This document shows, in pieces, positions 959-31,141 of a stretch of DNA of 64,000 bases. The position numbers were made by a program, and so were the translations under genes. The stretch spans positions 1 to 64,000 of IMG/VR virus record IMGVR_UViG_3300028173_000007. One strand, given 5' to 3'. The stretch comes from a virus. Within the stretch, counting starts at the first letter, position 1. Every line of letters begins with the position of its first letter. The notes under the pieces are model-generated. The model was given only the letters and a program-made list of their open reading frames with translations. It ran no database searches and was not told where the DNA came from.

Positions 959-3900
959 ATGACGGCCCGTGACCTGCTCCGCTCGGCCCGCGAGGCCCTC
1001 TCCGCGGCCGAGTGGCTCCCCGTGCCCGCCCGTGTCGGTGCGGCCCTCTGGCGGCGCCAGTCGGCGACGCTGGCCAAGGGCGCCGGGCACAAGTACGTCC
1101 GCCGCGAGCGGAACCCGAACCCCCCGCCCAAATGGCGCTACTACTACCGGGCGGCCAGCGCGGCCCGCGGCCTCCGCGCCGAGCTCTACGCGGGCGAGAA
1201 GTTCCAGATCGACCACGACGGCCAGGCGGGGCACTTCGAGGTGGTGGAGCTCAGCGGCGACCGGGTGACGGTGCGGCACGACGAGTCCGGCGAGCTCGTC
1301 ACGGTGACGCGGGCGGCCCTCGAAGCCATGTTCCGAGACCACCACGCGGAGGCCATCGACGCGCACCGCGGCCGGCTCTCGCGGGACCTCACCGCGGCGA
1401 AGAAGCACGGCGCCAGTCGGCGCCAGGTGGCCCGGCTCGAAGATGAGGCCCGCCGCCACGGCCACGAAGACCTCGTGAAGCCGAAGCAACGGACCCGAAG
1501 CCCCGAGGGCATCCCGCGCACCGAGGCGCCGGATCTCCTGCTCGTCGGGTGCGTCAAGACGAAGGCGGCGCACGACGAACGGGTGCCCGTGCGCGACCTG
1601 TACCGCTCCCGCACATGGAACCGCCGGCGGGACTACGCCGAAGCCCGCGAGCTCGTCGAGGGCCCCCCCTGGGCGGTCGTGTCGGCCGGCCTGGGCGTGG
1701 TGGACCCTGACCGGCAAACGAAGCGGTACGACGCCCAGGTGAAAGACCTCAAGGGGCCAGCGCGGGCGAAGTGGCTCAAGCGCGTGCGCGGCGCCTTGAT
1801 CGGGAAGCTCTACCGAGGGGAACGGCCCGACACGCCCCGGCGCATCGAGATCATCGCCGGCGCCGACTATGTGAAGGCCGTTCGGGAGGCCCTCGAAGGG
1901 CTCCCCGTCGAGGTGGTGCAGCCCCTCGAAGGCGTGGGGCTCACGCACCAAGAACAGTGGCTCCAGGCCCAGGCCCAGGAGCTCAAGGCGCAACATGAGA
2001 CGTTGGCAGAGCAGGCCAACCGGGAGTCGCCAGGCCGGCCCGAGTGGCACGGCCGCCTATCGCACCTGGGCCTATCGTGGGCCGATTGGGAGGTGCGCCA
2101 CGACTCCGCGGCCGACGCCGTGCGGCGCATCCTGCACCTGCGCCAGAGCTCCGACGGCTGGCACTTCGAGGCGGCCGCCGCGAAGGCCCTCGGTGAGACG
2201 CTCACCGACTACGCCGGCTATCCGGTCGAAATGGAGGACGAAGACGGCGAGTCGTGGCTTGAGGTCGAGCCCGAAGAACTCCCGTCGTGGTTCGGCCGGC
2301 CCGACTGGACGCCCGAGTTTGCCGCGAAGGTCTACCGGCGCGTGGTCGAGCACATCGACGACTGGACGCCCGACGAGGACGACCACCCCGACGGCGTGCC
2401 CGAGTGGGCCGAGGGCTTTCTTCACGAGGTCATGGCCGACGAGCTCGAAACGCCGCCCGACGGCCTGCGCTTGTCGATGGTGTCGAAGGACGAAGCCCGC
2501 CGGTTCATCACGAAGCATCATTCCGCCATGCCGAAGTGGAACCATCGCGGGGTGGTTTTCACCCTGGGCGTGCGTGACCCGCGGGGGCGGCTCGTCGCCG
2601 TAGCCACCGCGAACACCCCGACGGCGCGCGCCTGGCGAGACCACCCGCGCGAACTCGACACGGGGCGCATCCTGCCCGGCCACAACGTGTTGGAGCTCAC
2701 CCGCGTTGCCAGCGACGGCAGCGCGAAGGGCGCCGCGTCCATGCTGGCCCGGCGCGTGGTCGCCCTCGGTGAGAAGGCGAAGCGCGGCGACCCGACCGCC
2801 CCCCACCTCGTGATCACCTATCAACTGGCCAGCGAGAACGGCACCACCTACCGGGCCCTCCGCGACGTGGGCCTGCGCCCCGTCGAGCTCACGAAGGGGC
2901 GCAAGGGCGCCCGCAGGGCCGGCGGCCAGGTCGACGAGAACGACGCGGCGAAGCTCCCGAAACTGCGGTGGGAGGCCGGCCCGGCGGCCATGCCGGCCCG
3001 CTGGGACCTGCTCAACGCCATGAACGCGCGGCGTGAGCACCCCGAGCAACTGGCGACCCTGTTTGCGGCCGAGCGGGCAAACGTCGCCCTCGACGACTAC
3101 TTCGCCAGCGGCTCGAACCACGAAGGCGAGATCCGAGGCTTCCACCGCCTCGGGATCAACCCCGGCGTTGCCGCCGACCGGCTCAATGACCGCAACGTCC
3201 ACGAGCTCAAGCAACTTGCGGGGACCGGCCGCAAGGTCTTCGTGGACTCTGGCGCCTTCGGTGAAATCGACTTCAATGTCCCGAAGAAGGGGCAGAAGGG
3301 CCCGCCGCGGCCGGACCTGCCCATCGGGGCGCCGTTCGTGGTGAAGCCGATCACAGACGACGAGTGGCAAAAGCGGCTGGGCCGCTATCACGAGCTCGCC
3401 CAGGTCCTCGGCGGGCAAATGTACGCCGTCGCGCCCGACAAGGTGGCGCACCAGTCGGAGACCCTCGAACGGCTGGCCAGGTACGCGCCCCAGGTGCGCG
3501 AGATCGCCAAGCTCGGCGCGCACGTCATGGTGCCGATGCAGAAGGGCCAACTAGCCATGCCGGACTTCGCCCAGGTGGCCGCGAAGCGCCTCGGGATGAA
3601 GCCGGACGCCCTCATCTGGGCAATCCCCATGAAAAAGGACGCGACCACCCTCGACGAGCTCGAAGACTTTGTGCGCGAGGCGAAGCCCGGCCGCGTTCAC
3701 CTGCTCGGGGTGGGGCCCGACTCGAAGGCCTACCCGGCGATCCGCGCCATGTTCGACCGGGTGGCCCCCGGCACGGCGCTCACCCTCGACAGCGTGAAGA
3801 TCACCGCGGCCGTGGGTCGCGACGGCACCACGCCGGACGGCAAGCCCAAGGCCCGCGCGCTCACCGCCGCGCAAGACAGGGTGCGGGAGGCTATCGAGGC

Positions 3901-4339
3901 CTCCGCGTTCCGCGCAGACGACCCCGAGCTCCCCGACTACACCGACCACGCCGCCGAGCCGAGCGAGTGGACGACGGAGGCCAGCCGCCGGCGGCTGTGG
4001 GCTACCTGGCGCGGGCGGGACGTGGCCCGGCTCACGAAGACGATCCGAGACCTGCGCGCCGAGCACGGCGCCAGAAAGCCCGTGCCCGAGCCGCTGGCCC
4101 GAGCGAGGGCCGAGCTCAAGACCCTACGCGCCGACGCGAAGCTGTGGCGAGACGACCCCGACGAGTGGATGCAGGCCCCGATCCCCGGCGCAGACCACCT
4201 GAGCAACTACGAGGACCCGTCCGTCGCGACTGACCTTGAGGACACCTGGCGCGACTGGTTCGTAGGCGCCGGCTCGGTGGCCGTCCGAAAGGAGCGCGCC
4301 ATCGTAGAGGCGTTTGGCGAAGTGGGCCGGAAACGGTAG
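959..4339 (+). CDS. KGAGHKY-tagged polyvalent protein 1: tag + DUF6884-like + Mom/XF1762-like GNAT + TGT/DpdA-like domain (1126 aa)
   Basis: LAK|GAGHKY at K40 (nt 1076). LLVGCVKTK..VRDLYRS..VSAGLG..YD (DUF6884-like). EARRFITKHH..LELTRVA..ASML..VITY..ENGTTYRA (Mom-like). VFVDSGAF..APDKV..VHLLGVG..LDS (TGT-fold-like). Motifs recognised by eye. Confidence 0.8.
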   Translation: MTARDLLRSAREALSAAEWLPVPARVGAALWRRQSATLAKGAGHKYVRRERNPNPPPKWRYYYRAASAARGLRAELYAGEKFQIDHDGQAGHFEVVELSGDRVTVRHDESGELVTVTRAALEAMFRDHHAEAIDAHRGRLSRDLTAAKKHGASRRQVARLEDEARRHGHEDLVKPKQRTRSPEGIPRTEAPDLLLVGCVKTKAAHDERVPVRDLYRSRTWNRRRDYAEARELVEGPPWAVVSAGLGVVDPDRQTKRYDAQVKDLKGPARAKWLKRVRGALIGKLYRGERPDTPRRIEIIAGADYVKAVREALEGLPVEVVQPLEGVGLTHQEQWLQAQAQELKAQHETLAEQANRESPGRPEWHGRLSHLGLSWADWEVRHDSAADAVRRILHLRQSSDGWHFEAAAAKALGETLTDYAGYPVEMEDEDGESWLEVEPEELPSWFGRPDWTPEFAAKVYRRVVEHIDDWTPDEDDHPDGVPEWAEGFLHEVMADELETPPDGLRLSMVSKDEARRFITKHHSAMPKWNHRGVVFTLGVRDPRGRLVAVATANTPTARAWRDHPRELDTGRILPGHNVLELTRVASDGSAKGAASMLARRVVALGEKAKRGDPTAPHLVITYQLASENGTTYRALRDVGLRPVELTKGRKGARRAGGQVDENDAAKLPKLRWEAGPAAMPARWDLLNAMNARREHPEQLATLFAAERANVALDDYFASGSNHEGEIRGFHRLGINPGVAADRLNDRNVHELKQLAGTGRKVFVDSGAFGEIDFNVPKKGQKGPPRPDLPIGAPFVVKPITDDEWQKRLGRYHELAQVLGGQMYAVAPDKVAHQSETLERLARYAPQVREIAKLGAHVMVPMQKGQLAMPDFAQVAAKRLGMKPDALIWAIPMKKDATTLDELEDFVREAKPGRVHLLGVGPDSKAYPAIRAMFDRVAPGTALTLDSVKITAAVGRDGTTPDGKPKARALTAAQDRVREAIEASAFRADDPELPDYTDHAAEPSEWTTEASRRRLWATWRGRDVARLTKTIRDLRAEHGARKPVPEPLARARAELKTLRADAKLWRDDPDEWMQAPIPGADHLSNYEDPSVATDLEDTWRDWFVGAGSVAVRKERAIVEAFGEVGRKR

Positions 4340-4360
4340 GGTGCAGGTCCCCAACCGGAC

Positions 4361-4408
4361 GCCGGGGACGGGGCCGCACTCGGGTCGTGTCGCGGTCCCG
4401 CCCCCGGT
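4361..4408 (+). terminator. GC-rich hairpin after the polyvalent protein 1 gene (possible terminator, no U-tract)
   Basis: GCCGGGGACGGGGCCGC (4361-4377) pairs with GCGGTCCCGCCCCCGGT (4392-4408), 16 of 17 pairs including G-U. Confidence 0.5.
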
Positions 4409-4442: not shown

Positions 4443-5354
4443 ATGCGGCCGCTACCCCTCGACCATCCCGTGCGTGTGACCGAGGACGCGACGCCCGACG
4501 CCCGCGGCATCTTTCCAGGCCTCGGCGACGGCGGCCCGCCTCCCGTTCCGTTGTCGACCGTCCTCTCCCCGCTACGGGGAAGCGACCGGGCCGGCGCGAG
4601 GGCCGCCCTTGAGGCCCCGACGCGCGAAACCCTGGCCGACCTCCGCGGCGCCTACCGAGACGCCGGCCTGGCCGGGCCCAAGCTCGCCGCGGCCATGCAA
4701 TCGGCCGCGCGCTACATCGCCCACATGCGCCGGCGCAACCCACGGGGGCGCACCGAGCCCGATCACCTGCGGAAAGCGGCCTACTACGCCGGCGCGGAGG
4801 CCCTCGCGGCCAAGGTGGCGCGGGAGGTGGAGATCCCCGGCTTCATCGGCCGAGTCGTGTGGATGGCCCAGGCGCGCGACCTCCGCAAAGGGGCCGGCCA
4901 CAAGTACCTTCGCCGCGTGAAGGGGGCGAACGGGAAATGGCGGTACTTCTACAAGGTGAGCGGCGGCCGCGGCCTCGGGCACGCTGACGAGTTCCACGTC
5001 GGCGCGAAGTTCGCCGGCGGCGGCGGTCACTTCGAGATCGTGAGCGAGTCCGGCGACATCGTGGAGATCCGCCACGACGAGACGGGGGGGACGCGCAGGC
5101 TGGACAAGGCGGCCCTCTCCGAGCTCCTGCGAAAGCACCACGTCGAAATCGACACCGAGGGTTTCAGCTACTACGTTGGGCGCCTCGGGCCAGCCGACGC
5201 CTATCCAGGCACGGCCGGCGCCGCCGCGGCGGCGCGCTTCCACGGGCTCGACTATCACGAGCATGGAGCGCCCGACGTGCATCCACGACGGCGCGGCCGC
5301 GGGCAGGTGGCCGCGGCTGACGGACTACTGGCCAAGGCCAAGGGGGCAGCATGA
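4443..5354 (+). CDS. KGAGHKY-tagged protein 2 (long leader + tag module, little cargo; 303 aa)
   Basis: GGAGGA RBS; LRK|AAYY, LRK|GAGHKYLRRVKGANGKWRYFY..GHFEIV..IRHDETG; ends LLAK|AKGAA. Confidence 0.8.
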   Translation: MRPLPLDHPVRVTEDATPDARGIFPGLGDGGPPPVPLSTVLSPLRGSDRAGARAALEAPTRETLADLRGAYRDAGLAGPKLAAAMQSAARYIAHMRRRNPRGRTEPDHLRKAAYYAGAEALAAKVAREVEIPGFIGRVVWMAQARDLRKGAGHKYLRRVKGANGKWRYFYKVSGGRGLGHADEFHVGAKFAGGGGHFEIVSESGDIVEIRHDETGGTRRLDKAALSELLRKHHVEIDTEGFSYYVGRLGPADAYPGTAGAAAAARFHGLDYHEHGAPDVHPRRRGRGQVAAADGLLAKAKGAA

Positions 5355-8300
5355 GCACGGACCTGATCACGCGAGCCGCGGCCCTCCTGGGGCGCGTGCG
5401 CGGCCACCTCGACGAGATCCCCGAGGCCGCCGGCGTGCTCCTGTGGGCCCGCCAGTCGGGCGAGCTCGTGAAGGGCGCCGGCCACAAGTACGTCCGGCGG
5501 GTGAAGGGCGCGAACGGGAAATGGCGGTACTTCTACGACGTGACGGGGGGCCACGGTGCCGCGCACCACGCAGAGATCCACCTCGGCGCGAAGTTCAAGG
5601 TTGAGCACGAGGGCAAGGCCGGCCACTACGAGGTGACGAAGGAAGACGGCGGGTGGGTGACCATCCGGCACGACGAGACGGGACACGAGGCCAAGGTCAA
5701 GAAGACCACCGTTCAAACCATGATCAAGCGCCAGCACGCGGAGCTATTCGCGGCGCACCGCGAGCGCACCGCGCGAGACGTGAAGGCGGCGAAGAAGTAC
5801 GGCGCCAGCGCGAAGCAGAAAGCCCGCCTGGCGGCGCACGCGAAGAAGTACGGGCACCACGACCTCGCCAACGAACTCACCGACACGGCCGCGCCCGATC
5901 ACGCCGGCGAATACGGGCGTCACGCGGAGCGAGCTCGCCACCACCACGACGAGGCCAGCAAGGCCACGCCCGGCACCCCCGAGCACAAGAAGCACCGCGC
6001 GGCCAGCCTGGCCCACGAGAAGGCGCGCGAGGCGCATAGCCGAGCCATCGGTGACACCGAGGCCTCCGCGGGCGCCTTCGAGGCCTCGAAGGCCGCGGAC
6101 GCACTCACAGTCGAGCACCCCGAAGTCCACGCGGCCCGCCGAGCCCTCGAAGCACACGAGCGGAAACGTCAACAGGTCTCCGACCGCATGTACCGGCGAA
6201 CGAAGGCGGGCAGCGTCTCCACCGGCGCCCGTGCCGCCTACGACCTCAAGATGGGGCAGCTAGTCGAGCAGGAAGGCCACCTCCGCGCGGCCCTCGCCGC
6301 GGCCGAGGACAAGGCCAAGCGCGGGCCCGACGGCGAGCTCACCACCGACGAGCTCGCCCAGCGCCGCGCCGCGGCCGAGGCCTCGGCGCTCAAGCGCCGG
6401 GGGACCGGGAAGCCCGACGAGCCCGACAACGTGGTGCAGTTCCCGAAGCCCGAGCCGAAGCCCGAGCCCGAGTCGACCCGACCCGACCCGGCCCTACTCG
6501 CCCCGCTGGCCGACAAACTCGTCTCGCAACTGCTCCCCGGCATGAAGGGGCACGCGAAGCGCGCCGAGCTCCTGGCCATCGCCGCCGAGCACCTGGCGAA
6601 CATGGTCGGGCAAGAGCCCTCCGAGGAAACGGCGCAGGCCCTCGCGGCCGCCCTCACGACGAAGGCGCGCGAGCTCTCCGCGTCCAACGTGGTGCGCCTG
6701 GGCGGCCTGGGCGGCCGGAAGACGAAGCAGGAGAAGGCCGAAGCCTGGATGCGAGACGCGGCGGCGAAGCAGCGCGCAGGCCTGCGAGACGGCAAGCCGG
6801 GGCACCGCATCCACTACACCGGCGACCGGGCCAACAGCCCGCGCAACGGCGAGGTGATCGCCGCGTTCCCCGGTCACTACCGGGTGAAGTGGGACGACGG
6901 CACCGAAGGCAACGTCGAGCGGATCGGGGTGCGGGGCTGGGATAACGCCGGCGCCCGCTTCCATTGGGAGGACGAGAACCCGAGCGGCGACAGGAGCCCC
7001 GAGGCTATCGAGGAAGGCAAGCGGCAAGCGGTGGCCCACCGGGAGGCCGCCGACAAGGTGGCAGCGGCAGAGAAGGCCGAGCAGGACCGGAAGCACGCGG
7101 GGTGGCACAAGCCCGCCGACCGCACCGAGGCGTCCAAGCGGCTCAAGGCCGCGTTGCAGAAGCTCTACCCCGACGGCCAGTGGAGCGTGACCGGGGGGAA
7201 GGGGACCGGCTACGGGTGGCTCAGCATCAACGGCACCTCTGAGGCCGAGGGGAAGCTGCGCGACGAGCACCGCATTATCACGAGTGTTTCCAGCGGCAGT
7301 CGTGATTCCACCGTGCGGGACCTCGAAGAAGCGTCGGGGATCTTCACCCCCGGCGAGGGCCTCGCGCCGGGCAGCGTGGCCAGGAAGCACGCCGACAAGG
7401 CCGCAGCCGAGGCCGCAAGGCGCGAGGGCGCCGGCACCACGCGCCACGTCGGCCAGGTGGTCACCATCGGATCCAACCGCCGGCGCTACGTCGTGGTGAG
7501 CTCCGAGCAGGTGGGGTCCAGCCCGCCCCGCTACAACTTGTCCGCCCTCTCGGGCGGGATGCGGGGCTCGGGGCCGTCCTCGGTGTCCGCCGACGACCTC
7601 ATCCCCCACGCCGACCAGCGGATCACCTTCGACGGGGCCCAGGCGGCCGACCGCCGGGCCCGCGCGCTCCGCTCGCTGGCGCTCAACAGCAACGCCGACC
7701 CCGACACAAAGCAGCGGGTCCGGCTGGCGGCGAGCTCGGGGGGCGCGGTCCTCTCCCCGGCCGAGCTCGCCCAGCGCAAGGCCGCCGCCGACGCCGCGGC
7801 CCTCAAGCGCACGAAGGCGCCCGAGGTCCCCCCGGTGAAGCCCCCGGTGAAGCCCCCGGTGAAGCCCCCGGTGAAGCCCCCGCAAAGCGACTCGGGCCGG
7901 TCGGACGCTGACAAGCCCTCTCCCCAACCGGCGGCCCAGCGTCCGGCCGGCTTTTCTGCCCCCGTCGCTTTCACCGGCGAGACCCGCGAGAGCGTGACGA
8001 AGAAGCGCGGAAACACCGTCTGGAGCGTGCCCCACGCGGGGAGCATCCCCGACGCGCAGTTCACGGCCATGAAGGACGCCGCGCGGGAGCAGAAGGGCTA
8101 TTACCTGCGCGGCCAGGGCTTCACGTTCCGCGACCCCGAACACGCCCGGCAATTCGTCGCGGCCTGGGGCGCCGGTGACGGTGCGGTCCCGACGACGACG
8201 CCCGACGCGGACGGGAAGCGCCGCGCCAGGGCAGATCGGGCGAAGAAGCGAACGAAACCCGACGGCTTCGACGCGGCCGAGGGCGCCGGCGAGGGCTGGC

Positions 8301-16921: not shown

Positions 16922-16930
16922 TGGTAGGAT
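16922..16930 (+). promoter_or_regulatory. Extended -10-like element TGGTAGGAT, probably driving a leaderless mRNA
   Basis: In-frame GTG at 16938 follows the element after a 7-nt spacer; no RBS. Confidence 0.5.
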
Positions 16931-22579: not shown

Positions 22580-23005
22580 ATGAGCCACGCTTCGACCTTC
22601 GCCAACCCCTCGGATGCCGCCGCACAAGGCATCCTGAACGACTTGCGTTACCGGCCCTACGTCGTGCGCGAGGAAACGCCCGTCGCGAACCGCGTCGAGC
22701 GGGTCATGCGCGCGCTGGTGCCGGGCCGCATCGTCGGCGCCGACTCGTGGATCCGCACCGGCGGCGGGAACGTCACCACCGCGGACGTGCGTATCAACGG
22801 CGCCACCGTCATCGCGGCCGTCATGAGCCACGACGGCGCCACCGACGCCGAGCTCATCGAGGCCGCGCTCAAGACCGACCACGCGGACTACGACGCCACC
22901 GACAAGGTGATCAAGTTCGACGCCGGCGACGTGATCAGCGTCGTGTGGACCGCCCTCGGGGCTGGCGCCGCCGGTGGCCAGGTTCAGGTCAACGTCCAGT
23001 TCTAG
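22580..23005 (+). CDS. Hypothetical beta-rich structural protein
   Basis: GGAGGA RBS; C-terminal FDAGDVISVVWT..GQVQVNV beta pattern; head-gene context. Confidence 0.7.
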   Translation: MSHASTFANPSDAAAQGILNDLRYRPYVVREETPVANRVERVMRALVPGRIVGADSWIRTGGGNVTTADVRINGATVIAAVMSHDGATDAELIEAALKTDHADYDATDKVIKFDAGDVISVVWTALGAGAAGGQVQVNVQF

Positions 23006-23066
23006 CGGCTGGCGAGGCCATCAACACGGGTGAGCCGCCCCCGGCTGGCGGCCGGGAGGCGGGACC

Positions 23067-23477
23067 TTGGCCCTTGACCTGATCATGGACGTGAACGTCA
23101 CGGCGGCCAGCCGCCAGTCGGGCACGTCCGCGACGGCCGACGCCGAACGGGGCTTTGCCCCGGCGCGGCGCATCCGGCAGACGGTCTCCACCCTCACGCG
23201 ATCCGCCTTGCACGCACCGTTCGAGGTCGCAGCGGCCGAGAACCGGCAGATCGACTTGGGCAGCCTCACCGATCCGCGCTTCCTGTTCGTGGTGGTCTAC
23301 AGCGGCACGATCAAGGTTCGCACGTCCGGCGTCGCCGGCGAGGCCCTCTCCGTCTCCCCACCCGCCACCGGGCAGGTGGGTTTGTTCCTGATCACGGCGC
23401 CCGCGACGGGGCTGTGGCTGGAGAATGCGGGGACCGACCCCGTGCTGTGCGAGGTACTCGCCGCCGGCCTGGAGTAG
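23067..23477 (+). CDS. Hypothetical beta-rich structural protein
   Basis: GGAGG RBS with TTG start; typical codon usage. Confidence 0.65.
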   Translation: MALDLIMDVNVTAASRQSGTSATADAERGFAPARRIRQTVSTLTRSALHAPFEVAAAENRQIDLGSLTDPRFLFVVVYSGTIKVRTSGVAGEALSVSPPATGQVGLFLITAPATGLWLENAGTDPVLCEVLAAGLE

Positions 23478-23483
23478 CCGCCG

Positions 23484-24800
23484 GTGGAGCCTCTCACCCT
23501 CACCGTGGACGCCGCCCCCGGCGAGCTCGCCGCCCGGCTCCCCGAGGTGGTCGCGGCACTCCTGCGCACCGACCCCACGTCTACCCCGCGCATGGTCCGC
23601 GAGGCCACCGAGGCGCTCCACAAGGCGCAGTCGGAACCGGACTGGTGGCGGTGGCCCGTCGGCGCCGCCCTGACCGCTGCGGCCCGCGACGTGGCCATGA
23701 AGCGGGCCGAGCGGGTCAAGCGGCGGGTCTTCGAGGTGCTGGGGGTGCCCGAGCTCCAGAAGTCCGCCGCAGACGACCTGTGGCTCACCCCTGAGCGCCT
23801 GGCGCGGCTCCAGGCCGCGATCCGTGACGAGCACCTGGCGCTGGCCGTGGAGCTCTACGGCCCGACGGTGATCCCGGCCGACGAGCTCGCGCGGCTGCGG
23901 CTCGAAGGCGTGCTCACCGACTTGGACATCGAAGAAGCGCGCGGCCTGGGCGTGTTGGGCGTTGGCGTCCCCCTCGGCCACGGCATCCACGCCGACGAAG
24001 CCGCCGGTGAGCTCACCGCAGAAGAAGCCCGCGACTTGGCCGAAGACCTGGCCGCGACGTGGGACGGGTGGGACGACGAGCCCGAGCCCGAGCCCGAGCC
24101 CGGTGCAGACCCGCCGCCCCCGCCGGCTGACCCTCCCGCGGGTGTGGCCCCAGCGGCCCCCGCGGCGCCGGCGGGGGCACCTCTTACCGAGCGCCAGCGG
24201 GCGGCCCAGGCGGCCCGGCTGCGCGGAGGTGCGCAGATCGTCGGGCTGGGGAACCGGGTGGCCGCGGACCTGACGACCGTCGCTATCGACTCCACGGGGC
24301 CCGAGGCGCAGAAGCGCCGGCGGGCGGTGGCCGAGGCCATCGCCCAGGGCATCGAGACGGGCGCCAGCCGCTCAGACATTCGGCACGCGGTCGCGATGGC
24401 CCTCGGCGGGGACTACGCGCGCGACCTCGACCGCATCGTCAAGACCGAGCTCCACGCGGACATGCAGACCGGCCAGCGCGACGCCCTGCTCCACGAGGAA
24501 GGGCCCGACGTGCGCGTCGCGGTGACCCTCTCGCCGGGCGCGTGCCGCAACTGCCGGCGCCTGTACGGCGGCCAGTCGTTCAAGGCGGCCGACCTGCCCC
24601 TCCCCTCGGTCAACTTCCGGGTGAAGGCGGCCGACCGGGTGGCGTGCGTGCCGCCCGCGCACCCCAATTGCCAGTGCCATATGCGGTGGTTGCCGATGCG
24701 GTGGGGCGTGGATTCCGAGGGCCGGCCCGTGCCGCCCTCGAAGCTGGAAAAGAGTATCGAGCCGCGGCCGCGCTTCGTGCGGCGGCATAGGCCCAAGTGA
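23484..24800 (+). CDS. Head morphogenesis protein, MuF / SPP1 gp7-like
   Basis: DLDRIVKTEL..ACRNCRRLY..PPAHPNCQC is the typical MuF C-terminal signature; lies after the portal; LHK|A, LQK|S and LEK|S sites. Confidence 0.85.
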   Translation: MEPLTLTVDAAPGELAARLPEVVAALLRTDPTSTPRMVREATEALHKAQSEPDWWRWPVGAALTAAARDVAMKRAERVKRRVFEVLGVPELQKSAADDLWLTPERLARLQAAIRDEHLALAVELYGPTVIPADELARLRLEGVLTDLDIEEARGLGVLGVGVPLGHGIHADEAAGELTAEEARDLAEDLAATWDGWDDEPEPEPEPGADPPPPPADPPAGVAPAAPAAPAGAPLTERQRAAQAARLRGGAQIVGLGNRVAADLTTVAIDSTGPEAQKRRRAVAEAIAQGIETGASRSDIRHAVAMALGGDYARDLDRIVKTELHADMQTGQRDALLHEEGPDVRVAVTLSPGACRNCRRLYGGQSFKAADLPLPSVNFRVKAADRVACVPPAHPNCQCHMRWLPMRWGVDSEGRPVPPSKLEKSIEPRPRFVRRHRPK

Positions 24801-27800
24801 GGACCCCGATGGACCCGTTCGACACCCGAAGCCTTCGGTTCACCCGCCCCCTCCCGGTCGAGCTCACAAAGGGCATGGAGCCCGGCGATGAGTTCGTCCC
24901 GGTCTCGAAGTACCTCGGCGTGCTCCTGTGGGTCGGCCAGTCGGGCGAGCTCGTGAAGGGCGCCGGGCACAAGTACCTTCGGCGGGTGCCGGACGGGCGC
25001 GGCGGCTGGCGCTACTTCTACAACGTGGCCGGCGGCGGCGGCCTCGGCCACCACGACGAAATGCAGGCCGGCGCGAAGTTCAAGCTCGCGCACAACGGCC
25101 AGGCGGGGCACTTCGAGGTCCACGAGGATCACGGGGATCGCGTCACCATCCGGCACGACGAGAGCGGCCACGAGACGCGCGTCTCGAAGAAGGCGCTCCG
25201 CGCCATGCTCCACAAAGAGCACGCCCAGGCCGTCACGGCGCACACCGCGAAGGTCAAAGAGGATCTCGCCGCGGTGGCGAAGCACGGGACGGCGGGGCAG
25301 AAGAAGCGGCTACAGGCCCGCGCGGACAAGTACGGCCACACCCGGCACCTGCTCCGCGAGCAGGAGAAGCACGGGAAGACCGCCGAGGGTCACACCCGCA
25401 GCGGGCGGGAGATCCCCCACGTCGACTCCCACGGCGACGAGCGCGACGAGGCGACCGAGGATTGGGGCCAGGAGGACCACGACGACGCCGCGCGCCACCA
25501 CGCCGCGGCTGCGCGCGGCGCCGGCGCCGGCGCCGCCCACGTCAAGGCCGCCCACCTGGCCGCCGCCGCCCACCACCGCGAGGCCGCGTCCACGGTCCCG
25601 ATCAAGAAGCTCGACGAAGACGAGCGGGACCTTGCGCTCGACGTGATCGGCCGGCTGCGCCGCGAGATCGGGAAGCTCAAGAGCGGGCTCGAAGCCGGCG
25701 CGAAGGAAGAACAGCGGTTCGGCGGGCACTCGGTGTTCCGCACTCACCACGGGATGCACTCGTTCACGGCGCCCACCGGGGCCGACAAGGGCAAGATCGC
25801 GGAGGCCTGGATCACGTCGCACCTTGAGCGCGTCGGGCACGAGGCCATGAAGGAGGCCGCCGACAAGCACTATGGCGGCGAGAACGAAGACGCCCCCCAC
25901 GAGCACGGCATCCCCGAGAACGTACTTCGCGCCGTCCGCGCCACGCTGCGCCCCGAGGTGGTGAGCGCCTGGAGCATGGGCGGTATCAAGCTCATGGACG
26001 ACGGCCAGGCGCAGAAGAAGGCCGCAGCGGCGGCCAGCGCCACCGGGAAGCAGGCCGTGGCCGACAAGGCCAAGCGCGCCGAGGCGAAGAAGGCCCGCGC
26101 GGCCGAGAAGAAGGCCGCCCGCGCCGAGAAGGCGCGCGCCGAGGCGAAGCCCGAGGACGACCCGAAGCGGGGCCCCGACGGCGAGCTCACCGAGAAGGAG
26201 AAGGAACAGCGCCGCGAGAACGCGCGGCGCCGCAAGGGGACCGGGAAGCCCGACGAGCCGAAGAAGGGCCGCGCCCCGGCCTTCGACAATGAGACCTGGG
26301 CGAAGAAGTACGGGAAGCACGCGGAGAACGTCGAGGTCGTCGGCGGGCACATGACCGTATGGCAGATGGGCCAGAGCGGGAGCATGGGCACCCGCGGAAA
26401 CTGGTACGTCACCGCGCCCAACGGGAAGAACGTCGGCCGGGCGGCCAGCGCGGAGAAGGCGCGGGAGGTGGCCGAGCAGAAGGCCGCTCAGCACAAGCCG
26501 CTCGGCGCTGGCGAGGTGCTGGACGAGATCCGCAAGCGCGGGGGCCACGGCATCGCGGACGGGATGCACGCGGACGCGAAGGAACGCACCGAGGGCCACT
26601 ACACCGCCACGACGCACACCGGGAAGAAGATCCCCAAGGGCGGCCCAGGCGAGCACACCGAGGGCTGGAGCTCCGCGGAGCACTCCAGCGCGGCGGCCTG
26701 GCACAAGAAGCAGGAGGACGCCAAGCGAGCGGACCCGCGTTCAAGCCTCGAAGACGCGAACCACCACGGCCGCATGGCCGAAGCGCACCTCGGGGCCTAC
26801 ACGGCGATCCACGAGGGGCGGACGAAGGCGCGGAAGGCGAAGGACTTGGCCGCGCTCAAGGCCGACCCGAAGGCGAGGTTCCACGACGCCCTTGCGTCGA
26901 CCGGGTACGGCCCCGGCGGCCGGGGCTATGAGGCCGTGCGGGACTACATCGGCCTCGCCAACAGCCCCGAGGAAGCGGGCACCCTGGCGGCCGCCCTCGA
27001 CTACTCGGGAGAGGCGGGCGCGCGTAGCTTCGAGGCCCTGGCGGCCCGAGCTCTCAAGGTGTCCCCGGCCGAGCTCGTGACGCGCAAGCGCGCCCACGCA
27101 GCGGCCGGCGCGGCCGCCGGCGGCGCCAAGGGCGACGAGCCGAAGCGGGTCGGCGGGGAGCTCACCGAGAAGGAGAAGGAGCAGCGGCGGGAGAACGCGC
27201 GCCGGCGGCGCAAGTTCACCCCCATCGACCCGAAGAAGGCCGCAGTCCCCGAGCACCTCCGCGCGGGGACTGCGGCGCAGGTGGGCGAGAACATCGCGGC
27301 GAACGCCAAGCTCGCCAGCACCGACGACGAGCGACAGAACGTCCGCGATCACGTCTCGCGGCTACTCGCCGCGGGGACGATCACGTCCGAAGCCGGGGAG
27401 CGGGCGTACCTGGCCGCTGGGCTGACGAAGGACGGCGGATTCAAGGCGGCCGAGCCCGCCCCCAAGGCCGAGCCCGCCCCCAAGGGGCGGGAGGCCCGCC
27501 AGGCCGAACACAAGCGCCGAGGCGGCGAGGCGGCGACCGCTCACCAGGCGGTCGCCGACCACCAGAGCGCGTGGATCAAAGAGCAGGGCGGGTCCGCCAA
27601 GTTGCGCGAGCGCGGCATCCGGCGCATGGACCAGATCCCGGTGCCGGACGAGCTCAAGATGAAGCGCCAGAAGGCGCGGGATGCCGTTGCGGCGCACCAC
27701 CACGAGAACGGCGGCGCGGGCGGCTTCACGGCCGCGGCGATCAACGACGCGACCGCCTTTATCAAGCGCAGCGAGGCCAGCGGCGGCAACTTCGAGGTGC

Positions 27801-30800
27801 TCAAGTGGGCCCGCGCGGTGTTGTCGCAGATCAAGGCGGCCGGCCCCAACGCCGTGCGCGACACCCCCCCGCACCCCGGCAAGGGGAGCGCCACCGCGAC
27901 CGCAGAGAAGTTCCTCGCCCGGCTGCGCGACCAGAACAGCCATTGGGGCGGAGACGACCGCAACGACGTGGGCGATGCCATCGTGAAGGAGGGCCGAAAC
28001 AAGCGGACGGGGGCCGCGGAGCACGTCGTCAACTTCACGACCCGCCGCGGCCGCGAGGACCACCAGCGGCTCGGGGCCATCGCGACCGGCTTCGGCGGCC
28101 AGATGGTGCGGCGCAAGGGCTTCGTGTTCGCCACGCCTGAGAAGGCGCGCGCCTTCGCGGAGGCGCACGCCATCCACCACGGCACGGGCTCGCCCTACAG
28201 CGCCAGCAAGGCGGCCCAGGAGCCCGAGGGCGGCAAGCGGGGGCCCGGCGGTGAGCTCACCCCCGACGAGCTCGCCCAGCGCCGGGAGAACGCCGCGAAG
28301 CGCAAGGGGACGGGAAAGCCCGACGACGCGCCCAAGGCGAAGCCGAAGAAGGCCGACGAGCCCAAGGCGAAGCACCACCACGACGGTTGGCCCGAGGACC
28401 AGTACCAGCGCGCGCAGGCCTTCCGGCGCGCGCTCTATGAGGGCCCGATCAAGCTCGGGAACGGCGGCCAGGTGGAGACCACCGACACGGGAGTCAAGGT
28501 CACGCACCCCGACGGGCGTGAACACGAGATGCGCGTCCCCAGGATCGACCGCGACAACACGGCGATTGAGGCCGCGGAGAACGGCGGGCCCGTGATCGCG
28601 GCGCCCCTGGGCAGGATGGAGGGCTACACCGCGAAGGCCGACGGCCTCCCGGTGGGGGGCCGCGCTCACATCGCGTACAACAAGGGCCAGGACGCCCTCG
28701 CCAAGCTCCACGCGCACGCCAGCGCACGGGCCCGCGGTGAGAAGGTGGACGCCGGCGAGCTCCACGACGCGGCCGAGGCCGTCACGCGACACGCCCAGGC
28801 CGTCGAGGCGGCCCACACCCGCCGCGGGAAGCCGCGGGACGCGGCCCTGCGGAAGCGCGGAAGTCTGATCGCGCAGCGAGACGCCGTGCTCTCCAGCGCC
28901 CAGGATGCCGTCGCGTTCCACGGCCAAGGCAAGCCCGACCCCGAGGCCTTCCACGCCTGGGCCAAGGACAAGAGCCCCGAGAAGCTCGTAGACCTGGCCG
29001 CGAAGGTCACCGGGGAGGGCGGGCACCCCGCCGCAACTGAGCTCGCCTTCGGCAAGGTGCCGGCGCACGACATCGTGCGCGCCGCGATGGACAGCATCGG
29101 CAAGACCGGCTCTCGTGCCCGAAGCATCCCCGCCACCATGCGGCGCGCGGTCCATGCCCTCGGCCACCTGGCGGGGGAGCACCGCGGACACGAGAGCATG
29201 GCCCTCGGCGCGGCCTGGACCGACCTTCCCGACGCGGTGTTGGAGGGGATCAAGACCCGAGGCCGCACCGCAGACGGCAAAGACTGGCACCCCAACGGCC
29301 AGCGGAAGCGCGCCGCGGAGAACGCCGTCGGTGAGCTCCGCGCCCGCGACAACGCCGCCCAGCGGCTCGGCGTGCCCCGTGTCGAGGTTCAGCCGAAGGT
29401 GGGGGTCAACGGCACCGAGCTCAGTCACTTGGCGGCGGGCATGAGCGACCTTCGCAAGCGGGCCAGCGCCGGCGACAAGCACGCGGAGGGCGAGATCAAG
29501 ATGCGCGGCATGGCCGCCGATCTCCTGGGCCACGGGAAGCACGTCCTCGACTCCCTGCACGACCACGGCGGCGTGCATGAGGTGTTCGGCGGCGACCACG
29601 AACACATCAAAGCGCCGGACGGGAGCACCTACCGCCGGAACACGGGCCACGCCGGCGAGACGACGTGGAAGAAGGTCGGCGCGGACGGCACGACCGGCGA
29701 GTCGTGGAACCGCGGGGCGAGCCGCGCGGCTCTCGAAAAGCAGCACGGCACCGACGGGTGGGGCGACGCCAACGAGACGAAAGAGCAGGCCCACGGCCGG
29801 CTACTGGCCGACCTGAGCACGCAAGCCGGGCAGACGAGGCGGACGCCTGGGCGAAAGGAGCTCAGCGGGTACGACAAGACGGGGATCGCGATCCGCCAGC
29901 ACCTCGAAGGCTCGAAGCTCATCGAGCACGACGAGCACGGCCCCGTGTCGCTCGGCCAGGTGGCCGAGGTCATGGACCGGCACCAGAACGTCGCGGAGGC
30001 CGGCTCGAAGCGCGACAACATCCCCTCGCCCAACTGGCCGGCGAAGCTCTCCGACGAGCGCCTGGGCGAGATCGTGAAGCACCGCAACGAGCCCGGTCTA
30101 CACGACCGCTTCCACCGGGAGCAGACCGCGCGCGCCGATCACGAGCTCCACCAGGGCGACCACGGCGATCACGAGGCGGCGAAGTCCGGTAACGGCTGGA
30201 CGGTCAAGAAGGGCGGAAAGCACACCGGGATCAAGGCCGACACGAAGGGCGAAGCCCTGCACGCGGCCGGGATGCTCCACCGAGGGGACTCGGGCGAGGA
30301 CGTAGAGCACGCCCTCGCCACGGGCACGGCGAAGCGCGCGGTGGGCGTCTACAAGGAACGCCGGCGCCAGGCCGCCGCGGGGGCCGACGCGGCCAGCCTG
30401 CACGCCATGACGCAGGCGACGGCGCCCGCCGCCGGTGAGTTCAACGTCGAGGCGAAGCCGCACACGACCCGAGCGAAGGCGGCCGCCCGCATGGCGAAGT
30501 TCGCCAGCACCGAGGATGATCGCGTCAACTTGCAGAGCTACCATGTGAAGGATGGGCACGCCACCGCGACGGACGGGCACCGCCTGGCCAGTATCCCCGT
30601 GAAGGGTGACCACGAGGACGGGGCGACCTACCGAGCTCACGGCGACGCGGTGCCGAAGCACATCGAGGGCGACGCCGAGAAGGTGGCCGCGTGGCACAAG
30701 GGCTGGGGCCGAGGCTCGCAGAGCGACGTGAACTTCCCCGACTACACGCAGGTCACGCCCAAGGGGCACCCCCACGTCGATCACGTCGATGCGAAGCACC

Positions 30801-31141
30801 TCACGACCGCACTTCGGATGCTCAAGCCGCACATGGACGGGAAGGTCCCCCACATGCGCCTTGAACGGAAGGACGGGAAGCTCTACGCCACCGCCGACGT
30901 GGGCCACGCGGTAGACGGCGGCGTGGCACGCATCCACCTGGGCGACACCTCGCACCCTGACGGGCAGGTGGGCATCAATCACAAGTACCTCTCCGACGCG
31001 ACGCAGGGCGCAAAGGGCACGGTCCAGATCAAGACCGGGAGCATGAAGCCCCGAGCCGACGACAGCGACCACGGCCTCGCGCCGATGGCCGTACACCGCG
31101 AGGACGGCGAGAAGCACATCATCATGCCGCTGCGCGTGTGA
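24797..31141 (+). CDS. KGAGHKY-tagged giant polyvalent protein 7 (2114 aa) with C-terminal DnaN beta-clamp-like domain (start may be ATG 24809)
   Basis: LTK|G and LVK|GAGHKYLRR..WRYFY; C-terminus ATDGHRLA..FPDY..V..P..GINHKYL.D..IIMPLRV. Confidence 0.85.
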   Translation: MRTPMDPFDTRSLRFTRPLPVELTKGMEPGDEFVPVSKYLGVLLWVGQSGELVKGAGHKYLRRVPDGRGGWRYFYNVAGGGGLGHHDEMQAGAKFKLAHNGQAGHFEVHEDHGDRVTIRHDESGHETRVSKKALRAMLHKEHAQAVTAHTAKVKEDLAAVAKHGTAGQKKRLQARADKYGHTRHLLREQEKHGKTAEGHTRSGREIPHVDSHGDERDEATEDWGQEDHDDAARHHAAAARGAGAGAAHVKAAHLAAAAHHREAASTVPIKKLDEDERDLALDVIGRLRREIGKLKSGLEAGAKEEQRFGGHSVFRTHHGMHSFTAPTGADKGKIAEAWITSHLERVGHEAMKEAADKHYGGENEDAPHEHGIPENVLRAVRATLRPEVVSAWSMGGIKLMDDGQAQKKAAAAASATGKQAVADKAKRAEAKKARAAEKKAARAEKARAEAKPEDDPKRGPDGELTEKEKEQRRENARRRKGTGKPDEPKKGRAPAFDNETWAKKYGKHAENVEVVGGHMTVWQMGQSGSMGTRGNWYVTAPNGKNVGRAASAEKAREVAEQKAAQHKPLGAGEVLDEIRKRGGHGIADGMHADAKERTEGHYTATTHTGKKIPKGGPGEHTEGWSSAEHSSAAAWHKKQEDAKRADPRSSLEDANHHGRMAEAHLGAYTAIHEGRTKARKAKDLAALKADPKARFHDALASTGYGPGGRGYEAVRDYIGLANSPEEAGTLAAALDYSGEAGARSFEALAARALKVSPAELVTRKRAHAAAGAAAGGAKGDEPKRVGGELTEKEKEQRRENARRRRKFTPIDPKKAAVPEHLRAGTAAQVGENIAANAKLASTDDERQNVRDHVSRLLAAGTITSEAGERAYLAAGLTKDGGFKAAEPAPKAEPAPKGREARQAEHKRRGGEAATAHQAVADHQSAWIKEQGGSAKLRERGIRRMDQIPVPDELKMKRQKARDAVAAHHHENGGAGGFTAAAINDATAFIKRSEASGGNFEVLKWARAVLSQIKAAGPNAVRDTPPHPGKGSATATAEKFLARLRDQNSHWGGDDRNDVGDAIVKEGRNKRTGAAEHVVNFTTRRGREDHQRLGAIATGFGGQMVRRKGFVFATPEKARAFAEAHAIHHGTGSPYSASKAAQEPEGGKRGPGGELTPDELAQRRENAAKRKGTGKPDDAPKAKPKKADEPKAKHHHDGWPEDQYQRAQAFRRALYEGPIKLGNGGQVETTDTGVKVTHPDGREHEMRVPRIDRDNTAIEAAENGGPVIAAPLGRMEGYTAKADGLPVGGRAHIAYNKGQDALAKLHAHASARARGEKVDAGELHDAAEAVTRHAQAVEAAHTRRGKPRDAALRKRGSLIAQRDAVLSSAQDAVAFHGQGKPDPEAFHAWAKDKSPEKLVDLAAKVTGEGGHPAATELAFGKVPAHDIVRAAMDSIGKTGSRARSIPATMRRAVHALGHLAGEHRGHESMALGAAWTDLPDAVLEGIKTRGRTADGKDWHPNGQRKRAAENAVGELRARDNAAQRLGVPRVEVQPKVGVNGTELSHLAAGMSDLRKRASAGDKHAEGEIKMRGMAADLLGHGKHVLDSLHDHGGVHEVFGGDHEHIKAPDGSTYRRNTGHAGETTWKKVGADGTTGESWNRGASRAALEKQHGTDGWGDANETKEQAHGRLLADLSTQAGQTRRTPGRKELSGYDKTGIAIRQHLEGSKLIEHDEHGPVSLGQVAEVMDRHQNVAEAGSKRDNIPSPNWPAKLSDERLGEIVKHRNEPGLHDRFHREQTARADHELHQGDHGDHEAAKSGNGWTVKKGGKHTGIKADTKGEALHAAGMLHRGDSGEDVEHALATGTAKRAVGVYKERRRQAAAGADAASLHAMTQATAPAAGEFNVEAKPHTTRAKAAARMAKFASTEDDRVNLQSYHVKDGHATATDGHRLASIPVKGDHEDGATYRAHGDAVPKHIEGDAEKVAAWHKGWGRGSQSDVNFPDYTQVTPKGHPHVDHVDAKHLTTALRMLKPHMDGKVPHMRLERKDGKLYATADVGHAVDGGVARIHLGDTSHPDGQVGINHKYLSDATQGAKGTVQIKTGSMKPRADDSDHGLAPMAVHREDGEKHIIMPLRV

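What the first reader, a model, noticed from the sequence alone, without database searches (positions are those of the whole stretch)
959..31141. Modular address-tag-plus-cargo system: one N-terminal module fused to many unrelated enzymes around the portal gene
Seen: six genes (959, 4443, 5351, 12447, 16929, 24797) carry the same ~110-aa module. It consists of a leader (about 40-55 aa in five of them, often P..G.(L/I)LW.R..GEL) ending in L-x-K, then GAGHKYxRR-loop-WRY(Y/F/D)Y..G.K(F/V)..G..GH(F/Y/W)xV....G..V.(I/V/L)(R/V)HDE(T/S)G and a helix. Gene 14962 has a variant (LRK|S..GGRYVYRVKKGKGWHYVY). Downstream of the module the proteins are largely unrelated: DNA-modification domains, PRTase + C5 MTase, RelA/SpoT-like, zincin, and giant His/Ala/Arg-rich proteins. 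They take up about 23 kb among the head genes. Known: T4 internal proteins use a short cleaved capsid-targeting sequence, P1 packages DarA/DarB, and polyvalent and MuF-fused proteins are delivered with phage DNA. Inference: this is a reusable folded tag that loads a panel of anti-host or anti-defence enzymes into the head for co-injection. I do not recognise this tag family as described.
Basis: partly seen in the sequence, partly recalled or inferred. Interest (0 to 1): 0.93.

Follow-up and report, generated by a model that had tools for sequence, protein, structure and literature searches.

The report
Cleavable header domain on phage cargo
An uncultured high-GC phage puts the same, apparently undescribed ~160-residue "header" in front of six unrelated enzyme proteins next to its portal gene, and the header carries the likely cut site of the phage's own head protease, so it probably marks proteins that are loaded into the capsid, trimmed there and injected with the DNA.

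Summary
Six genes share a ~120-170-aa module (HMM E 1e-49 to 1e-59); gene 14962 keeps only its cut site and hairpin.

The module matches no Pfam, PHROG, NCBIfam or PDB entry. It has about 660 relatives at 50% clustering, all in uncultured phages. None turned up in 50,697 GenBank phage records or 72,556 plasmids.

AlphaFold (pLDDT 85) gives a leader helix, a floppy hinge, a basic beta-hairpin, a Tudor/SH3-like barrel and a three-helix bundle.

New here:
- In relatives the module recurs 2-4 times inside giant polyvalent proteins, once before each cargo block.
- The hinge motif (L/V/I)-x-K|(G/A), with K 97% conserved, also ends the capsid protein's N-terminal leader in 16 of 16 related phages. 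It holds 54% of all lysines in their scaffold proteins.
- A conserved assemblin-fold prohead protease sits beside these genes.
- Module genes lie directly after, or fused to, MuF.

Best reading (about 0.57): a head-loading header that the prohead protease cuts. Packaging and cleavage are inferred, not measured, and which part is the address is open.

It is a new variant of known polyvalent or packaged effector systems. This scan noted what looks like the same domain earlier in another genome (e1-4098524).

The parts
959..4339 (+). Header-bearing protein 1 (1126 aa). Header at 1007-1366, putative cut after K40 (codon 1076-1078, L-A-K|GAGHKY). Cargo: DUF6884 plus a Mom-like/XF1762 acyltransferase plus an uncharacterised C-terminal domain.
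4443..5354 (+). 303-aa protein with the header in an internal/C-terminal position (4818-5162). Putative cut after K149 (codon 4887-4889). No enzyme cargo behind it. In relatives its N-terminal 125 aa plus header are fused to the 5351-type cargo.
5351..10903 (+). Header-bearing giant (1850 aa, Ala/His/Arg-rich). Header at 5402-5758, putative cut after K41 (codon 5471-5473). No HMM-recognisable cargo domain.
12447..14954 (+). Header-bearing protein (835 aa). Header at 12495-12860, putative cut after K40 (codon 12564-12566). Cargo: a PRTase-like motif plus a C5 cytosine DNA methylase.
14962..16644 (+). 560-aa protein with a minimal header only (L-R-K|S plus the basic hairpin RYVYRVKKGKGWHYVY, 15019-15108). 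The RelA/SpoT-like reading is only weakly supported.
16929..19727 (+). Header-bearing protein (932 aa). Header at 16971-17351, putative cut after K38 (codon 17040-17042). C-terminal HEYGH (19392-19406) is a putative zincin.
19724..20725 (+). Polyvalent-type InPase protein without the header. It has L-A-K|A about 20 residues before the InPase domain.
20728..22575 (+). Portal protein.
22580..23477 (+). Two small genes (141 and 136 aa), conserved between portal and MuF in close relatives. Function unknown.
23484..24800 (+). MuF-like minor head protein. Its stop overlaps the start of the next header gene.
24797..31141 (+). Header-bearing giant (2114 aa) in the conserved post-MuF position. Header at 24887-25246, putative cut after K54 (codon 24956-24958). 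C-terminal DnaN/clamp-like domain.
31526..32377 (+). Prohead maturation protease. The Peptidase_S78 signal is weak, the predicted fold is assemblin/T4 gp21-like, and H71 and S128 are invariant. Conserved upstream of scaffold and capsid protein in 15 of 15 relatives.
32377..33177 (+). Scaffold protein (266 aa). Eight of its 12 lysines sit in the context (L/I/V/M/F)-x-K-(G/A/S).
33253..34758 (+). Major capsid protein. It has L-L-K|S at aa 30-33 (33340-33348), at the end of an N-terminal leader.

Best explanation
The module is a "cargo header" for proteins carried inside the phage head. It has three parts.
1. A leader of 13-55 residues, usually an amphipathic helix reading E-(I/L)-P-x-W-(L/M)-G-x-L-L.
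2. A flexible hinge, (L/V/I)-x-K|(G/A). This is the motif I infer to be the cut site of the phage's own prohead protease.
3. A folded body that stays on the cargo: a strongly basic beta-hairpin (HKYxRR...(W/Y)RYxY), a Tudor/SH3-like barrel with invariant GH and HDE(S/T)G, and a three-helix bundle.

Proposed course of events. The header proteins are made late from the same strand as portal, MuF, protease, scaffold and capsid protein. The header, through its leader, its body or both, brings them into the procapsid, probably near MuF and the portal. The protease then cuts at the hinge. In relatives it would cut at every internal header of a polyprotein. This yields separate units that each begin GAGHKY..., stay in the DNA-filled head and leave with the DNA to act on the host or on the incoming genome.

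Shown: the repeated domain; its architecture and conservation; its recurrence at unit boundaries; the synteny and fusion with MuF; the presence of the protease; the statistical signature of the K-motif in scaffolds and capsid leaders.

Inferred: that the motif is cut, that the proteins are in virions, and that they are ejected.
For: - Six copies with E 1e-49 to 1e-59.
- The family has 663 representatives at E<=1e-3. In 94 of the 150 best the first copy starts within 60 aa, and 34 of 150 hold 2-4 copies.
- Multi-copy relatives are bona fide polyvalent proteins carrying SNF2, a methylase, LPD1 and ddrB-ParB.
- Across 229 instances K at P1 is 97% conserved, L/V/I at P3 91% and G/A at P1' 94%, even where the leader cannot be aligned.
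- In the AlphaFold model (pLDDT 85) the only stretch below pLDDT 50 is residues 37-42, G-E-L-V-K-G, which is exactly the hinge.
- The protease gene 31526-32377 has weak S78 matches (6 of 15 homologues, best E 6e-4). Its best structural matches are almost all herpesvirus assemblins and T4 gp21. It lies upstream of scaffold and capsid protein in 15 of 15 relatives.
- All 16 capsid proteins have L-x-K|(A/S/G) about 30-45 aa from the start.
- Scaffold lysines sit in the motif in 8 of 12 cases in the window, against 8 of 144 in tail and other genes (Fisher p 7e-7). In 13 relatives it is 115 of 214, against 32 of 309 in capsid proteins (p 1.6e-27).
- The MuF gene lies directly upstream of a header gene, or is fused to it as in L004 and L007.
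- The order MuF, header gene, protease, scaffold, capsid protein is conserved.
- None found in 72,556 plasmids.
Against: - There is no virion proteome, no N-terminal sequence and no cultured member.
- All header-bearing records belong to one clade: 24 of 28 share the portal and 21 of 28 the capsid protein. Linkage to head genes is therefore partly inheritance.
- The P1 lysine could be conserved for a reason other than cleavage. No covariation test was possible because every relative uses K.
- The motif is not depleted inside cargo, as avoidance of stray cuts would predict. It is slightly enriched (938 observed against 758 expected).
- Internal headers keep their leader, which a simple "leader = address, then discarded" model does not need.
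- The InPase gene in the same block lacks the header, so the header is not required for every gene there.
- Four invariant His plus Asp-Glu are unexplained by a pure tag role.
Confidence: 0.57

Rival explanations
1. The module is mainly a nucleic-acid-binding domain that tethers the enzymes to phage DNA, either in the head or after entry. It is shared because most cargo acts on DNA. Encapsidation would depend on something else, such as the leader alone or MuF.
For: - The hairpin has a median net charge of +6 and the module a median pI of 9.45.
- Small SH3/Tudor-like barrels include DNA binders: the integrase C-terminal domain and an ssDNA-binding PWWP domain appear among the weak fold matches.
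- Much of the cargo is DNA-directed: methylases, Mom-like, ParB-like, SNF2, topoisomerase IB, clamp-like.
- Hairpin-only copies exist in gene 14962 and three times in P0187.
Against: - Cargo also includes InPase, RelA_SpoT, ART, 2H phosphoesterase, a kinase, PAPS reductase and a zincin.
- The barrel plus helix is acidic, with median charge -3.
- The fold matches are weak (Z about 6, E >= 0.02) and generic.
- DNA binding does not explain the invariant hinge lysine or the placement at every unit boundary.
- This reading is compatible with the main explanation rather than exclusive of it.
Confidence: 0.2
2. The module is an enzyme or self-processing domain. Its invariant His, Asp and Glu form a catalytic or metal site that cuts the polyprotein in cis at K|G or carries out another reaction.
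For: H28, H77, H92, D93, E94 and H114 are 93-98% conserved across 229 instances. Iyer et al. 2017 (PMC5512222) note that strongly conserved polar residues mark possible enzymes among uncharacterised polyvalent-protein domains. The module sits exactly at unit boundaries.
Against: - The same K-motif is massively enriched in scaffolds and present in capsid leaders, neither of which has the module. That points to a trans-acting protease.
- P1' is Gly or Ala, so there is no Ser/Thr/Cys nucleophile for an acyl-shift self-cleavage.
- A ~50-residue Tudor-like barrel has no protease precedent among the matches.
- The His cluster could equally be a structural metal site. I had no model coordinates to measure it.
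Confidence: 0.08
3. The proteins are not virion cargo. The module is an oligomerisation or regulatory domain of late-expressed intracellular enzymes, and its linkage to head genes reflects only the conserved gene order of one phage clade.
For: The family is confined to one clade with shared portal, capsid protein and protease. There is no direct virion evidence. The header-less InPase gene sits in the same block.
Against: - Fusion to MuF in L004 and L007, and immediate adjacency in 11 of 20 loci.
- The cargo repertoire is that of phage-type polyvalent proteins, which PMC5512222 links to virion genes and MuF.
- The hinge motif is shared with substrates that the prohead protease meets only inside proheads.
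Confidence: 0.12

Closest known systems
Phage-type polyvalent proteins (Iyer, Burroughs, Anand, de Souza, Aravind 2017, J Bacteriol, PMC5512222)
   Same: Large proteins that combine disparate enzyme domains (InPase, ddrB-ParB, LPD1, ART-PolyVal, 2H, RelA/SpoT, methylase with SNF2, zincin). They are encoded among late virion genes, are often linked or fused to MuF, and are predicted to be packaged, processed into units and injected.
   Different: That paper proposes zincin-like metallopeptidases as the processing enzymes. It describes no repeated header at unit boundaries. Here each unit opens with one specific ~160-aa domain that carries a prohead-protease-type hinge, and in this phage the units are split into separate genes. 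The domain matches none of the LPD families present in Pfam. I could not check the LPDs that never entered Pfam because no supplement is held.
T4 capsid targeting sequence of internal proteins, and the N-terminal 30-residue packaging signal of P1 DarB (Mullaney and Black 1996, as cited in PMC9024508; PMC9024508)
   Same: An N-terminal element directs diverse proteins into the procapsid. In T4 the prohead protease removes it after targeting. The cargo is anti-restriction or host-modifying enzymes delivered with the DNA.
   Different: Those are short peptides with no folded domain. The T4 site is (L/I)-x-E, cut by an S77 protease. Here the leader is followed by a conserved folded body that would stay on the cargo, the inferred site is (L/V/I)-x-K, and the element is reiterated inside polyproteins.
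MuF polymorphic toxins of temperate phages (Jamet et al. 2017, BMC Biol, PMC5576092)
   Same: A constant N-terminal head-associated domain is joined to highly variable C-terminal effector domains, encoded next to the portal.
   Different: There the constant part is MuF itself. The six window proteins have no MuF domain. MuF is a separate upstream gene, fused only in some relatives (L004, L007).
Ejection and inner-body proteins of giant phages SPN3US and phiKZ, processed by the prohead protease (PMC10052503)
   Same: Paralogous families of head-internal proteins have N-terminal propeptides that the prohead protease removes at a simple consensus. That consensus also occurs several times within the propeptides of cleaved head proteins such as gp53.
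   Different: The consensus there is A-x-E. The paralogues share their mature bodies rather than a common header on unrelated enzymes. These are different phage lineages with no sequence relation.

Membership tests
Phage-type polyvalent proteins (Iyer et al. 2017) | Two or more domains of disparate biochemical activity in one polypeptide | tested here: met
   Gene 959 has DUF6884 plus a Mom-like/XF1762 domain. Gene 12447 has a PRTase-like motif plus a C5 methylase. Relatives combine LPD1, ddrB-ParB, SNF2, methylases and InPase.
Phage-type polyvalent proteins (Iyer et al. 2017) | Encoded among late virion genes, often linked or fused to MuF | tested here: met
   The genes share a strand with portal, MuF, protease, scaffold and capsid protein. 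MuF is directly upstream in the window and fused in L004 and L007.
Phage-type polyvalent proteins (Iyer et al. 2017) | Packaged in the virion and delivered with the DNA | not testable with these tools
   There is no cultured member. Virion proteomics is needed.
Pfam LPD families / any catalogued domain family (for the header itself) | Significant HMM match of the header to a catalogued family | tested here: not met
   Pfam, PHROGs and NCBIfam give nothing over the header. The best are SH3-like hints at E about 0.04. No Pfam domain is common to the 73 relatives. LPDs of the 2017 paper that are absent from Pfam could not be checked.
T4-type capsid targeting sequence | Short N-terminal peptide ending in the (L/I)-x-E site of a gp21-type (S77) protease | tested here: not met
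   The hinge is (L/V/I)-x-K (K 97%) and the protease is S78-like/assemblin-fold. The resemblance is functional only.
T4-type capsid targeting sequence | Sufficient to direct a foreign protein into the capsid | not testable with these tools
   This needs a reporter-fusion experiment.
MuF polymorphic toxins | MuF domain at the N-terminus of the same polypeptide as the variable effector | tested here: not met
   None of the six proteins has a MuF match. MuF is the neighbouring gene 23484-24800. Relatives L004 and L007 do have a MuF-header fusion.
Tudor/SH3-like small beta-barrel fold (header residues ~70-127) | Structural superposition on solved Tudor/SH3 barrels | tested here: inconclusive
   SETDB1 Tudor: 47 residues at rmsd 1.8 Å, Foldseek E 0.03. 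BAHCC1 TTD: Z 6.1. These are weak matches and say nothing about function.
Caudovirus prohead serine protease, Peptidase_S78 (for gene 31526-32377) | Pfam PF04586 match above the gathering score | tested here: inconclusive
   15.1 bits against a cut-off of 21 (E 0.026). Six of 15 homologues match weakly, best E 6e-4. A search of the whole record found none.
Caudovirus prohead serine protease, Peptidase_S78 (for gene 31526-32377) | Assemblin-like fold, conserved His and Ser, position upstream of scaffold and capsid protein | tested here: met
   The top Foldseek rows are almost all herpesvirus proteases and T4 gp21 (E 0.009-0.1). H71 and S128 are invariant. The gene is syntenic in 15 of 15 relatives.

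The most novel reading that the evidence does not exclude
The header is a portable, self-sufficient encapsidate-cut-release device. Its leader and folded body dock any downstream protein in the procapsid, and its basic hairpin perhaps holds the protein on the packaged DNA. A single protease-specific hinge turns phage polyproteins into individual injected enzymes. That would be a polyprotein strategy, like that of RNA viruses, operating inside a tailed-phage capsid. It would also be a ready-made tag for programmable protein delivery.
Probability: 0.3. Interest if true: 0.8.

Novelty: new variant of a known kind. Interest (0 to 1): 0.62.

Why it matters
How phages choose which proteins to carry in the head is known for only a few model phages: the T4 targeting sequence, the P1 Dar proteins and MuF fusions. 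How giant polyvalent proteins are cut into working units has only been guessed at.

This family offers a concrete, testable rule for a whole clade of uncultured phages:
- a defined folded header;
- a predicted cut site, (L/V/I)-x-K|(G/A/S);
- an identified protease;
- about 660 natural header-cargo combinations.

If confirmed, it would give a catalogue of injected anti-defence enzymes that can be read directly from sequence. It would also give a candidate tag for loading foreign proteins into capsids.

Tried and rejected
- Catalogue searches for the header. Pfam at E up to 10, PHROGs, NCBIfam, a PDB sequence profile, Foldseek against PDB and VIA-align wide gave only SH3/Tudor-like hints and generic helix bundles.
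- BFVD. It gave one probable family member, a "DdrB-like domain-containing protein" of an uncultured phage (E 1.9e-5).
- tblastn against GenBank phages with three different members (the module alone for one, whole proteins for two), and against plasmids with the window's module. No header match. P0137 matched Synechococcus phages only through its kinase cargo.
- Covariation test. Three capsid proteins lack K in the aligned column. I asked whether their phages' headers change too. They keep K, but those capsid proteins turned out to have L-x-K|(A/G/S) four residues further on. The result is consistent but is not a covariation proof.
- Avoidance test. I asked whether the motif is depleted inside cargo. 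It is not (938 observed against 758 expected from shuffles, z +7), at about the same per-lysine rate as tail proteins. The test was uninformative.
- A whole-record search with PF04586 found no protease. The gene was found only after a lead from earlier scan note e1-6109653 and then checked directly.
- Gene 14962 as RelA/SpoT. No Pfam or PDB hit, only a weak alignment.
The protein Atlas would not take the sequences. The supplement of PMC5512222 is not held.

Full report
**Setting.** The window is the first 64 kb of an 89.6-kb IMG/VR virus record (CheckV 63% complete, about 71% GC). From 959 to 34758 all plausible genes lie on the + strand, often with overlapping stop and start codons. In order they are: five header genes and one variant, InPase, portal, two small genes, MuF, a giant header gene, a zinc-ribbon gene, protease, scaffold and major capsid protein.

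**Observation.** The repeated module is real.
- An alignment of the six copies has 23 invariant columns, with 34-54% identity to the 5351 copy.
- A profile built from it finds exactly those six places in the whole record, at E 7e-49 to 1.8e-59.
- In gene 4443 the module is internal, at residues ~126-240 of 303.
- Gene 14962 keeps only L-R-K|S plus the hairpin.
- The cargo is heterogeneous. DUF6884 plus a Mom-like/XF1762 domain (gene 959) and a C5 methylase (gene 12447) are HMM-supported. A DnaN/clamp-like C-terminus (gene 24797) has weaker support. The PRTase, the zincin (HEYGH) and RelA/SpoT rest on motifs or weak alignments.

**What the module is.**
- No Pfam, PHROG or NCBIfam family and no PDB sequence matches it.
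- AlphaFold2 with a 50-sequence alignment gives a confident model (mean pLDDT 85).
- The model shows leader helices (3-15, 25-38), a hinge, a beta-hairpin (49-61), a small barrel (81-117) and a three-helix bundle (118-177).
- The only stretch below pLDDT 50 is residues 37-42, G-E-L-V-K-G.
- Fold searches match only Tudor/SH3-like barrels (SETDB1 Tudor, 47 residues at rmsd 1.8 Å; Z about 6) and generic helix bundles.
- Across 229 instances the near-invariant positions are L/V/I-x-K-(G/A)-x-x-H-K-Y-x-(R/K)-R, (W/Y)-R-Y-x-Y, G-x-x-F, G-H, H-D-E-(S/T)-G and a helix His.
- The hairpin is strongly basic (median +6). The rest is mildly acidic.

**Distribution.**
- A profile search of 1.84 billion representative proteins finds 663 relatives at E<=1e-3 and 426 at E<=1e-10.
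- Of the best 150, 94 have the first copy within 60 residues of the start. Thirty-four carry 2-4 copies spread along proteins of up to 3,600 aa.
- These multi-copy proteins are classic polyvalent proteins with SNF2 plus a methylase, LPD1 and ddrB-ParB.
- Precomputed Pfam domains of 73 relatives add InPase, ART-PolyVal, 2H phosphoesterase, GNAT, RelA_SpoT, PAPS reductase, topoisomerase IB, N6 methylase and ferritin. A kinase also turned up.
- No source gives any of these proteins a name.
- tblastn with the window's module and two whole relatives found the header in none of 50,697 GenBank phage records. The window's module found it in none of 72,556 plasmids.
- A single-pattern scan of GTDB genomes found three loci, one in a Myxococcales MAG with portal and MuF nearby.
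- IMG/VR gave 38 loci.

**Context.**
- Of 28 header-bearing viral records, 24 have a homologue of the window's portal and 21 a homologue of its capsid protein, including 5 of 5 complete records. The family therefore marks one phage clade.
- Within 10 kb of a header, 28 of 41 loci hold the portal and 20 hold a MuF homologue.
- In 11 of those 20 a header starts within about 250 bp after the MuF homology. In L004 and L007 the two are in one reading frame.
- The recurrent order is InPase, portal, two small genes, MuF, header gene(s), protease, scaffold, capsid protein.
- Similarity between the window's header proteins and those of other loci is mostly confined to the first ~170 residues.
- The post-MuF gene keeps its header and clamp-like end, while the middle varies from almost nothing to about 1,300 residues.

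1. The lysine is 97% conserved, also at internal copies and where the leader cannot be aligned.
2. Gene 31526-32377 is a prohead protease. An earlier scan note pointed me to it and I then tested it. It has weak Peptidase_S78 matches in 6 of 15 homologues, invariant His and Ser, and a predicted fold whose best PDB matches are almost all herpesvirus assemblins and T4 gp21. It lies upstream of scaffold and capsid protein in 15 of 15 relatives.
3. All 16 capsid proteins carry L-x-K|(A/S/G) 30-45 residues from the start. The window's reads S-V-G-E-L-L-K|S, close to the headers' Q-S-G-E-L-V-K|G.
4. Scaffold proteins are saturated with (L/I/V/M/F)-x-K-(G/A/S). In the window it is 8 of 12 lysines, against 8 of 144 in tail and other genes (p 7e-7). 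In 13 relatives it is 115 of 214, against 32 of 309 in capsid proteins (p 1.6e-27).

Scaffolds and capsid leaders are the classic substrates of prohead proteases. From memory, HK97 gp5 is likewise cut after a lysine (K103|S104). The parsimonious reading is that this clade's protease cuts after hydrophobic-x-Lys, and that every header presents such a site in a flexible hinge. Because these proteases act inside proheads, a conserved site argues that header proteins are there too. None of this has been measured.

**Mechanism proposed.**
- Late co-expression with the head genes.
- Entry into the procapsid through the header, near MuF and the portal.
- Cutting at the hinge. In polyprotein versions this would happen at each internal header and release separate header-body-plus-cargo units.
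- Retention in the filled head, possibly with the basic hairpin on DNA.
- Exit with the genome.

Which part is the address is open. Short-leader members (13-22 residues, for example L031 and L033-L037) look like T4-type targeting peptides. However, internal copies keep their leaders, solo modules exist (P0074 at 165 aa, gene 4443), and hairpin-only mini-headers exist (gene 14962, three in P0187). This suggests that the body, or the hairpin, has a role of its own.

**Rivals.** These are a DNA-tethering domain, a catalytic or self-cutting domain built on the invariant His/Asp/Glu, and a non-virion role with linkage explained by clade ancestry. The first is compatible with the main model. The second is disfavoured by the motif's abundance in module-free scaffolds. 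The third is disfavoured by the MuF fusions and the shared protease motif.

**Comparison with the known.**
- The system belongs to the polyvalent-protein theme of Iyer et al. 2017, which predicted packaging, MuF linkage and processing, though by zincin peptidases.
- Functionally it resembles the T4 capsid targeting sequence and the P1 DarB N-terminal signal, MuF polymorphic toxins, and the protease-trimmed ejection proteins of giant phages.
- It differs in having a folded, reiterated header with a lysine-type hinge.
- I found no paper that describes it.
- I could not compare it with the LPD families of the 2017 paper that never entered Pfam.

**Earlier notes of this scan.** One note (e1-4098524) describes what appears to be the same domain in another genome, with the same internal recurrence. 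Many other notes report analogous tags and protease-type junctions in other phages. These are unchecked AI notes and I did not use them as evidence.

**Verdict.** It is a new variant of a known kind. Interest is moderate to high because the model is specific and directly testable.

Noticed in passing
window 26171-26251, 28241-28321 (gene 24797) and 6323-6415 (gene 5351); a third copy lies near aa 782-815 of the 24797 protein: A ~27-35-aa motif, G-P-(D/G)-G-E-L-T-x-x-E-x-x-Q-R-R-...-(K/R)-(K/R)-G-T-G-K-P-D-(E/D), recurs three times in the 2114-aa giant and once in the 1850-aa giant, about 1 kb apart. It lies between unrelated segments and could be a second kind of linker or binding peptide.
   Followed up: partly
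window ~30470-31141 (C-terminus of gene 24797): The last ~220 residues resemble a sliding-clamp (DnaN) domain (phrog_947 E 8e-11; TIGR00663 E 2.9e-5). This end is conserved in the post-MuF header genes of L010, L011 and L012, although the middle of the protein is not.
   Followed up: partly
window 19724-20725: The header-less InPase protein has L-A-K|A at aa 139-142, about 20 residues before the InPase domain. Portal and MuF also have such motifs near their ends (aa 34-37 and 588-591; aa 91-94 and 421-424). They may be trimmed by the same protease.
   Followed up: no
P0187 (712 aa, RelA_SpoT relative) and window 15019-15108: Hairpin-only mini-headers (K-G-x-x-x-G-H-K-Y-x-x-R...G-G-W-x-Y-x-Y without the barrel) occur three times in P0187, about 200-230 aa apart, and once in gene 14962. 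The hairpin may be the minimal functional unit.
   Followed up: partly
alignment A4 (protease homologues of L042-L056): One protease-homologue reading frame also matches Pfam DUF5661 (E 2.9e-13). In that phage an extra domain may be fused to the prohead protease.
   Followed up: no
G001:C1:35247-36932 (portal of a related record): The portal homologue is read through one in-frame TGA. This could be a sequencing error, a split gene or recoding. The TAG in the G012 portal match is probably an artefact of the record's terminal repeat.
   Followed up: no
window 325-864: A 179-aa protein with a lipoprotein-like signal peptide (MMMRSFLVGLLLVLCLPLGGATMC...) lies just upstream of the first header gene. 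It could be a moron or a superinfection-exclusion protein.
   Followed up: no
window 4443-5354 versus L004/L007/L002: In relatives, the N-terminal 125 aa plus header of gene 4443 are fused to the 5351-type cargo in one ~1650-aa protein with a single header. The window therefore shows a header duplication together with gene fission.
   Followed up: partly
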